Source: a virus. Taken from it: a DNA stretch of 39,633 bases. Shown here one piece after another: positions 3,490 through 4,760 of the stretch. The translations under genes and the position numbers were made by a program. The stretch lies in the UHGV virus genome UHGV-1978634; one strand, written 5' to 3'. How positions within the stretch are numbered: position 1 is the first letter of the stretch; every line of letters begins with the position of its first letter. The notes below the pieces were generated by a model. That model was not told the origin of the DNA and did no database searches. It saw only the letters and a program-made list of their open reading frames with translations.

Positions 3490-4760
3490 ATGCCTAACAA
3501 TCTCGACAGTAACGTCAGTCAAATCGTTCTGAAAAAATTCCTTCCGGGTTTTATGTCAGATTTAGTTCTGGCGAAAACCGTAGACCGTCAGTTGCTGGCA
3601 GGTGAAATCAACTCCAGCACTGGCGATAGCGTTAGCTTTAAACGTCCGCATCAATTCTCATCCCTCCGTACTCCCACTGGTGATATTTCAGGGCAAAATA
3701 AAAACAACCTGATCTCAGGTAAAGCTACGGGGCGTGTAGGTAACTACATCACTGTTGCTGTTGAATATCAGCAACTGGAGGAAGCGATCAAGCTTAACCA
3801 ACTGGAAGAAATTCTCGCGCCGGTTCGCCAGCGAATCGTTACCGACCTTGAAACAGAGCTTGCTCACTTCATGATGAATAACGGTGCGTTGTCACTTGGT
3901 AGCTCCAATACTCCAATCACCAAATGGTCTGATGTTGCGCAGACGGCATCTTTCCTGAAAGACCTCGGCGTTAATGAAGGTGAAAACTATGCTGTAATGG
4001 ATCCATGGTCTGCACAGCGACTTGCTGATGCGCAGACTGGTTTGCACGCTTCAGATCAATTGGTTCGTACTGCATGGGAGAATGCACAGATCCCAACCAA
4101 TTTTGGCGGCATTCGCGCACTGATGTCTAATGGGCTTGCCTCTCGTACTCAGGGGCATTTGGCGGAACACTGACAGTCAAAACACAGCCAACTGTTACCT
4201 ATAACGCAGTTAAAGACTCATACCAGTTCACTGTAACATTGACCGGAGCGACAACCAGCGTTACAGGTTTCCTGAAAGCTGGTGATCAGGTTAAATTCAC
4301 CAATACCTACTGGCTGCAACAGCAGACCAAACAGGCGTTGTATAACGGAGCCACACCAATTAGCTTCACTGCAACGGTTACTGCTGATGCTGATTCAGAC
4401 GGCAGTGGCGATGTGACGGTTACGCTTTCTGGTGTTCCGATTTATGACACTACAAACCCGCAGTACAACTCTGTAAGTCGTCAGGTAGCGGCAGGCGATG
4501 CCGTATCTGTAGTAGGCACTGCTAGCCAGACAATGAAGCCAAACCTGTTCTATAACAAGTTTTTCTGTGGACTTGGCTCTATCCCACTGCCGAAACTGCA
4601 CAGTATTGATTCTGCTGTTGCAACATATGAAGGTTTCTCCATCCGCGTACATAAATACGCAGATGGCGATGCCAACGTGCAAAAAATGCGCTTCGACTTA
4701 CTGCCTGCATATGTGTGCTTTAACCCTCACATGGGCGGTCAGTTCTTCGGTAATCCGTAA
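3490..4760 (+). CDS. Major coat protein (Sf6/HK620-type), interrupted by a 1-nt frameshift at G-run 4152-4155
   Basis: ORF 3490..4173 (MPNNLDSNVSQIVLKKFLPGF..) ends prematurely; the other frame continues without stop (..GAFGGTLTVKTQPTVTYNAVKDSYQFTVTLTGATTSVTGF..) into ORF 4239..4760; the two pieces together approximate a ~420-aa coat. Confidence 0.85.

What the first reader, a model, noticed from the sequence alone, without database searches (positions are those of the whole stretch)
3490..4760. Major coat gene split by a single-base indel in a G homopolymer
The coat frame stops at 4171-4173, but reading one base earlier across gggg at 4152-4155 gives an uninterrupted ~420-aa Sf6-type coat protein. 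A phage with a broken coat gene cannot make capsids, so this is either a homopolymer sequencing error or a real inactivating mutation.
Basis: partly seen in the sequence, partly recalled or inferred. Interest (0 to 1): 0.55.

Follow-up and report, generated by a model that had tools for sequence, protein, structure and literature searches.

The report
Coat gene frameshift: sequencing artefact
The Sf6-type phage coat gene really is split by one missing G in a G run, but this is almost certainly a base-calling or assembly error in a draft-quality record, so it is ordinary.

Summary
The coat ORF 3490-4173 stops at TGA 4171-4173. Re-reading one base back at GGGG 4152-4155 restores a continuous 423-aa protein. 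That protein aligns end to end with the solved Sf6 coat protein gp5 (417/423 identical).

The break is very unlikely to be biological:
- No public collection searched holds the 4-G variant: 0 hits against 116 IMG/VR contigs with 5 G, and 123 of 123 fetched loci have 5 G.
- An argW-integrated prophage in NCBI assembly GCA_052515165.1 matches the whole 39.6-kb window with zero substitutions. A Logan contig (DRR784582) does the same over 16.6 kb.
- The window differs from that prophage only by six single-base indels, and the window's version of each appears in no fetched relative. They are the coat G, an extra G in the large terminase gene at 195, and four indels at 25435-25825.
- The window is an unclosed, circularly permuted phage-form contig. 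Both ends lie in the terminase gene and 158 nt are missing between them.

Six indels with no substitutions in an unfinished contig is the pattern of sequencing or assembly error, not of gene decay or recoding. There is no slippery heptamer and no downstream RNA structure. Verdict: not a real feature, low interest. Reads were not available, so a very recent real mutation is not strictly excluded.

The parts
3490..4173 (+). 5' part of the major coat gene as written: a 227-aa ORF. Residues 1-222 are authentic coat sequence. The last five (HLAEH) are out of frame, followed by TGA 4171-4173.
   Evidence: PF11651 profile positions 5-224
4152..4155 (+). The G4 run where one G is missing. All relatives have G5, with codons CAG GGG GCA = Q221 G222 A223.
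   Evidence: (123 of 123 loci have 5 G)
4155..4760 (+). 3' part of the coat gene in the -1 frame: 201 codons (residues 223-423) plus TAA 4758-4760. It begins at the start of the insertion domain.
   Evidence: PF11651 profile positions 222-423; the PDB 6mpo insertion-domain chain aligns to repaired residues 222-346
4765..4790 (+). Stem-loop (AAGGGGC-TTCC-GCCCCTT) followed by a T run. It lies at the position of the terminator annotated after the coat gene in Sf6 and HK620.
   Evidence: sequence; Sf6 and HK620 annotation
1..451 (+). 3' part of the large terminase gene. It carries a second single-base indel seen in no relative, an extra G at 195 (GCAGAGCCCC against GCAGACCCC). The frame then runs into a stop at 292-294. 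The authentic C-terminus is in frame 2 and ends at 451.
   Evidence: the variant is absent from IMG/VR and GTDB genomes
38829..39633 (+). 5' part of the large terminase gene, running off the end of the window. In the identical prophage, 158 nt lie between window position 39633 and window position 1.
25435..25825 (.). Cluster of four more single-base indels seen in no relative: -A at 25435 (A4 to A3), -T at 25670, +T at 25779, +T at 25825. The indel at 25825 shortens the Sf6 gene-34 homologue from 140 to 127 aa. The indel at 25435 falls in a 56-aa ORF.
18878..18894 (.). Attachment-site core. The two prophage arms (L139 and L126) overlap by 17 nt here, so the window is in the excised, circular phage order and not the integrated order.
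   Evidence: Sf6 attP annotation

Best explanation
The split coat gene is an error in the deposited or assembled sequence. One G of a five-G run was dropped during base calling or consensus building. The phage itself most likely has an intact 1272-nt, 423-aa Sf6-type coat gene. The same record holds five more single-base indel errors, including one that breaks the large terminase gene. It was also never closed, since 158 nt of the terminase gene are missing between its two ends. What is shown: the window's variant appears nowhere else, intact genomes exist that are otherwise identical, and the differences are indels only. What is inferred: that the cause is technical rather than a very recent mutation.
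For: 1. The window is the only sequence with this variant. The 4-G version has 0 matches in IMG/VR, GTDB genomes and JGI metagenomes, against 116 IMG/VR contigs with 5 G. All 123 fetched loci that cover the site have 5 G, and every listed hit among 243 matching E. coli genomes has a 1272-nt gene.
2. Identical genomes have an intact gene. The prophage in NCBI GCA_052515165.1 (loci L126, L130, L139) covers the entire window with 0 substitutions. Logan DRR784582 (L127) does the same over 16.6 kb. Both encode a 423-aa coat protein, and adding one G to the window gives their DNA exactly.
3. The only differences from that genome are six single-base indels, at 195, 4155, 25435, 25670, 25779 and 25825. 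The window's version of each is found in 0 of 149 fetched loci, while the alternative is found in 3-52 loci. From my own knowledge, spontaneous substitutions outnumber indels about 10 to 1 in E. coli, so six indels with no substitution is not a natural divergence pattern.
4. Two of the six are homopolymer contractions (G5 to G4, A4 to A3) and two lengthen a T by one base (T to TT, TT to TTT).
5. The record is draft quality. It is a linear contig with both ends inside the terminase gene and 158 nt missing. One indel lies 195 nt from a contig end and four cluster within 400 nt.
6. The window has attP joined, meaning excised or packaged phage DNA. If that DNA came from particles, working coat and terminase proteins were needed to make them.
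Against: No reads or quality values are available, so the call rests on comparison alone. A single-base deletion in a G run is also a common real mutation. Zero substitutions relative to GCA_052515165.1 is compatible with a mutation that arose very recently in one isolate. I do not know the source or sequencing technology of the window. I also do not know whether the phage-form order was produced by someone joining prophage ends computationally.
Confidence: 0.9

Rival explanations
1. It is a real, very recent inactivating mutation. This isolate's phage or prophage lost one G by replication slippage and is now defective for head assembly.
For: G5 runs are natural slippage sites. The coat ORF is unambiguously broken. 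A second essential gene, the large terminase, is also frameshifted, as would be expected in a decaying element.
Against: There are zero substitutions but six indels relative to an identical prophage. None of the six is shared with any relative. There are no IS elements, deletions or nonsense mutations in real genes elsewhere. The sequence is in the excised phage order, not the integrated order. Four of the indels cluster within 400 nt and one lies near a contig end, which points to local low read quality.
Confidence: 0.08
2. It is recoding. Ribosomes slip back one base on G_GGG at 4152-4155, which would restore exactly the wild-type sequence ...Q-G-A-F-G..., so the coat protein is still made from the 4-G gene.
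For: A P-site tRNA-Gly can re-pair perfectly one base back on GGGG, and the -1 product would be identical to the intact protein of relatives.
Against: There is no X_XXY_YYZ heptamer in the zero frame (CAG GGG CAT). The 100 nt downstream fold no better than shuffled sequence (z = +1.12). No relative anywhere has the split arrangement. A major coat protein is needed in hundreds of copies per particle, which low-level slippage would not supply.
Confidence: 0.01

Closest known systems
Shigella phage Sf6 gene 5 coat protein (PDB 5l35, 7sp4; insertion domain 6mpo) and HK620 gp5
   Same: After adding one G, the protein is 423 aa and aligns 1-423 with no gaps. It has 6 differences from Sf6 gp5 and 3 from HK620 gp5. 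Gene order is the same: portal, scaffold, coat, terminator, head-completion genes.
   Different: As written, the gene is one base short and splits into a 227-aa ORF and a 201-codon out-of-frame remainder. The break falls at residue 222/223, the start of the insertion domain.
argW-integrated Sf6-like prophage of NCBI assembly GCA_052515165.1 (contig DBKBKR010000001.1) and Logan DRR784582
   Same: GCA_052515165.1 is identical to the window over all 39,633 nt with 0 substitutions. It has the same tailspike, gtrABC cluster, integrase and early region. The Logan contig is identical over the 16.6 kb that it covers.
   Different: Those are integrated prophages with an intact coat gene (G5) and intact large terminase gene. 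The window differs by six single-base indels, lacks 158 nt of the terminase gene, and is in the excised order.
Homopolymer and indel errors of sequencing or consensus building (general knowledge: 454, Ion Torrent, Nanopore, low-coverage contig ends)
   Same: The differences are single-base length changes, mostly in or next to short runs, with no accompanying substitutions. They cluster locally and near a contig end in an unclosed assembly.
   Different: The technology used is unknown. Two of the six indels (195 and 25670) are not in homopolymers.

Membership tests
P22/Sf6-type major coat protein (Pfam PF11651, HK97 fold with insertion domain) | Full-length sequence match to the family profile | tested here: met
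   The repaired protein scores 472 bits over profile positions 5-423. The fragments cover 5-224 and 222-423.
P22/Sf6-type major coat protein (Pfam PF11651, HK97 fold with insertion domain) | One uninterrupted reading frame that encodes the whole protein | tested here: not met
   The frame breaks at 4152-4155, with a stop at 4171-4173. It is met only after one G is added.
P22/Sf6-type major coat protein (Pfam PF11651, HK97 fold with insertion domain) | Close relative with a solved capsid structure, and an insertion domain present | tested here: met
   PDB 7sp4 and 5l35 (Sf6 gp5) match at E about 1e-280 over 1-423. The 6mpo insertion-domain chain aligns to residues 222-346.
P22/Sf6-type major coat protein (Pfam PF11651, HK97 fold with insertion domain) | Position in the head-gene module (terminase, portal, scaffold, coat, head completion) | tested here: met
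   The ORF order in the window matches the Sf6 annotation.
Programmed -1 ribosomal frameshift | Slippery heptamer X_XXY_YYZ at the shift site | tested here: not met
   The zero-frame codons are ACT CAG GGG CAT. Only a single-codon G_GGG slip is possible.
Programmed -1 ribosomal frameshift | Stimulatory RNA structure downstream | tested here: not met
   Region 4156-4255 has an MFE of -12 kcal/mol against a shuffle mean of -15.1 (z = +1.12).
Programmed -1 ribosomal frameshift | Two-frame arrangement conserved among relatives | tested here: not met
   0 of 123 loci have it, and the three public collections give 0 hits.
Pseudogene of a decaying prophage | Integrated state, with other decay such as substitutions, nonsense mutations, IS elements or deletions | tested here: not met
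   attP is joined at 18878-18894. There are 0 substitutions relative to the identical prophage. No gene apart from the terminase and coat genes is split against more than three relatives, and those few splits trace to the relatives' own records or to non-coding frames. Stops inside blastx matches fall in non-coding frames or upstream of start codons in the cases I traced.
Pseudogene of a decaying prophage | Lesion shared by descent with related genomes | tested here: not met
   The 4-G variant is found only in the window.
Sequencing or assembly indel artefact | Variant found only in one record, while otherwise identical genomes are intact | tested here: met
   L126, L127 and L130 are identical apart from the indels and encode an intact 423-aa coat protein.
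Sequencing or assembly indel artefact | Accompanied by other indel-only differences and by signs of an unfinished assembly | tested here: met
   There are six single-base indels seen in no relative, 0 substitutions, and 158 nt missing between contig ends that both lie in the terminase gene.
Sequencing or assembly indel artefact | Read-level evidence (pileup or quality values) that the true sequence has five Gs | not testable with these tools
   No reads or source record are available for the window.

The most novel reading that the evidence does not exclude
The four-G allele is real, and the phage still yields some coat protein because ribosomes occasionally slip -1 on G_GGG, which regenerates exactly the wild-type sequence. 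Alternatively, it persists as a defective element that depends on a helper phage's coat and terminase proteins.
Probability: 0.02. Interest if true: 0.35.

Novelty: not a real feature. Interest (0 to 1): 0.04.

Why it matters
It matters mainly for curation. As written, this record would be annotated with a broken major coat gene and a broken large terminase gene, and the phage could be wrongly called defective. The comparison shows that the underlying phage is an ordinary, intact Sf6/HK620-like temperate podovirus that integrates at argW. Its coat protein is identical to one already found in many E. coli genomes. No new biology follows from the split.

Tried and rejected
- Programmed frameshifting. 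I looked for a slippery heptamer (none) and folded the 100 nt downstream (weaker than shuffles). Rejected.
- Prophage decay. I ran a blastx census of the whole window against all ORFs of 125 related loci. Only the terminase site (about 195) and the coat site (about 4152) were split against many subjects (95 and 120). The other split signals came from 1-3 subjects and traced to errors or variation in those subjects or to non-coding frames. The in-frame stop scan gave only hits in non-coding frames or upstream of start codons in the cases I traced.
- Natural variants at 25670, 25779 and 25825. I first thought these were natural because UPEC prophages matched that stretch at 99.3% over an equal length. 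A direct alignment with PA45B showed the window is the outlier there too.
- Exact-protein lookup of the truncated 227-aa product found nothing.
- A literature search for a 39633-bp phage found nothing.
- The phages and E. coli genomes collections hold no record near-identical over the whole window: no match covers 80% of either half, and coverage is 73% or less. The identical prophage was found only through exact-protein lookups.

Full report
**Observation.** The window has GGGG at 4152-4155. The ORF that starts at ATG 3490 ends at TGA 4171-4173 and is 227 aa long. Translating from 4155, one base back, gives 201 open codons (AFGGTLTVKTQ...GQFFGNP) up to TAA 4758-4760. A stem-loop and T run follow at 4765-4790, at the position of the terminator annotated after the coat gene in Sf6 and HK620.

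**What the gene is.** Megablast of 3490-4760 finds the major capsid genes of Sf6, HK620, N7, HF4s and others at 97-99% identity. It also finds matches in 243 complete E. coli genomes. In every listed hit the gene is 1272 nt, against 1271 nt in the window. An alignment of the site shows CAGGGGGCATTT in Sf6, N7 and HK620 and CAGGGGCATTT in the window. Against Pfam PF11651 (P22_CoatProtein), the first fragment covers profile positions 5-224 and the second covers 222-423. The conceptually repaired protein covers 5-423 at 472 bits. The repaired 423-aa protein aligns 1-423 without gaps to Sf6 gp5 (PDB 7sp4 and 5l35, E about 1e-280). The 6mpo insertion-domain chain aligns to residues 222-346, so the break falls at the start of the insertion domain. 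The repaired protein has 6 differences from Sf6 gp5 and 3 from HK620 gp5.

**How widespread the 4-G allele is.** A pattern search for the 4-G version, with the two variable neighbouring positions left free, found nothing in IMG/VR, in one genome per species of GTDB, or in the JGI metagenomes. The 5-G version found 116 IMG/VR contigs. All 123 fetched loci that cover the site have five Gs.

**What the window is.**
- It is a complete-looking Sf6/HK620-like (Lederbergvirus) genome in the excised, circular order. It carries the head and tail genes, an 807-aa tailspike, a gtrABC cluster, an integrase, attP, the early left genes, the immunity region, the replication and nin genes, the lysis genes and the small terminase gene.
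- Both ends lie inside the large terminase gene. The window ends at Sf6 position 1224 and begins at Sf6 position 1383, so 158 nt are absent.
- Exact-protein lookups with the window's tailspike, portal and a 217-aa early protein led to one prophage integrated at argW in NCBI assembly GCA_052515165.1, and to a Logan assembly of run DRR784582.
- The three overlapping loci from GCA_052515165.1 (L130, L126, L139) cover every base of the window.
- The two prophage arms overlap by 17 nt at 18878-18894, which is the att core.

**The decisive comparison.** Across all 39,633 nt there is not one substitution between the window and that prophage. The only differences are six single-base indels:

| Window position | Change in window | Context | What it affects |
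|---|---|---|---|
| 195 | +G | GCAGAGCCCC against GCAGACCCC | Large terminase gene |
| 4152-4155 | -G | G5 to G4 | Coat gene |
| 25435 | -A | A4 to A3 | 56-aa ORF |
| 25670 | -T | CCGTGTA to CCGGTA | Apparently intergenic |
| 25779 | +T | T to TT | Downstream of the new stop in the gene-34 homologue |
| 25825 | +T | TT to TTT | Sf6 gene-34 homologue, 140 to 127 aa |

The 158 nt that the window lacks are also present in the prophage. Adding one G to the window's coat gene reproduces the prophage's coat DNA exactly. For all six sites, the window's 28-29-mer occurs in none of 149 fetched loci, while the alternative occurs in 3-52 loci. The terminase variant is also absent from IMG/VR and GTDB genomes. 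A direct alignment with an unrelated UPEC prophage (PA45B) and with Sf6 confirms that the window is the outlier at the three sites that alignment covers, 25670, 25779 and 25825. A blastx census against all ORFs of 125 related loci found only two frame splits supported by many subjects, the terminase and the coat. It found no nonsense mutation in a real gene.

**Interpretation.**
- Six indels and no substitutions is not how genomes diverge. From general knowledge, spontaneous substitutions outnumber indels roughly tenfold in E. coli.
- It is how error-prone base calling or low-coverage consensus building looks. Two indels shorten a G5 and an A4 run and two lengthen a T by one base. Four cluster within 400 nt, one lies 195 nt from a contig end, and the contig was never closed.
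- The excised gene order suggests the DNA came from replicating or packaged phage. If it came from particles, working coat and terminase proteins were needed to make them.
- I therefore read the split coat gene as a sequence artefact, with confidence about 0.9.

**Rivals.**
- *A real, very recent slippage mutation* cannot be excluded without reads. It would have to coincide with five further private indels and no substitution (about 0.08).
- *Recoding by a -1 slip on G_GGG* would regenerate the wild-type protein. However, there is no slippery heptamer, the downstream 100 nt fold worse than shuffled controls (z = +1.12), and no relative shares the arrangement (about 0.01).

**Comparison with what is known, and novelty.** The gene is an ordinary member of the P22/Sf6 coat family, and its repaired product is already present, residue for residue, in public E. 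coli genomes. The frameshift is not a biological feature. The finding has value for curation only: the record should not be annotated as a defective phage without resequencing.

**What would settle it.** A read pileup or Sanger sequencing across 4150-4157 and the other five sites, closure of the 158-nt gap, and a particle or plaque test.

Noticed in passing
window 1-451, indel at 195: The large terminase gene is also frameshifted, by an extra G (GCAGAGCCCC against GCAGACCCC in 52 fetched loci). The variant is absent from IMG/VR and GTDB genomes. The shifted frame stops at 292-294, and the authentic C-terminus continues in frame 2 to 451.
   Followed up: yes
window ends: 39633 and 1: The window is a circularly permuted but unclosed phage genome. 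Both ends fall inside the large terminase gene, and 158 nt present in the identical prophage (and in Sf6, HK620 and vB_EcoP-611R6) are missing between them.
   Followed up: yes
window 25435-25825: There are four more single-base indels seen in no relative, all within 400 nt: -A at 25435, -T at 25670, +T at 25779 and +T at 25825. The one at 25825 shortens the Sf6 gene-34 homologue (minus strand, ORF 25797-26180) from 140 to 127 aa. The one at 25435 hits a 56-aa ORF. This looks like a local low-quality stretch.
   Followed up: yes
window 12258-18894: This stretch holds an 807-aa tailspike, a gtrC/gtrB/gtrA O-antigen glucosylation cluster (14715-17411, minus strand), an IntS-type integrase (17561-18754) and a 17-nt att core at 18878-18894. 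In GCA_052515165.1 the identical prophage sits at argW, between yfdC and the dsdC side. The tailspike protein is indexed in 44 blocks of the public collection.
   Followed up: partly
L124 (ON470605.1) 32973-34872: In the related record vB_EcoP-720R6, the primase/helicase is annotated as two CDSs and shows up as a frame split relative to the window's intact 626-aa ORF (30331-32211). That is a probable frameshift or error in that record, not in the window.
   Followed up: no
window 22747-23325 (minus strand): A 192-aa HNH_3-domain endonuclease ORF lies among the early-left genes (Pfam call taken from the identical prophage locus L139). It is absent from the corresponding positions of Sf6 and may be a mobile homing-type insertion.
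   Followed up: no
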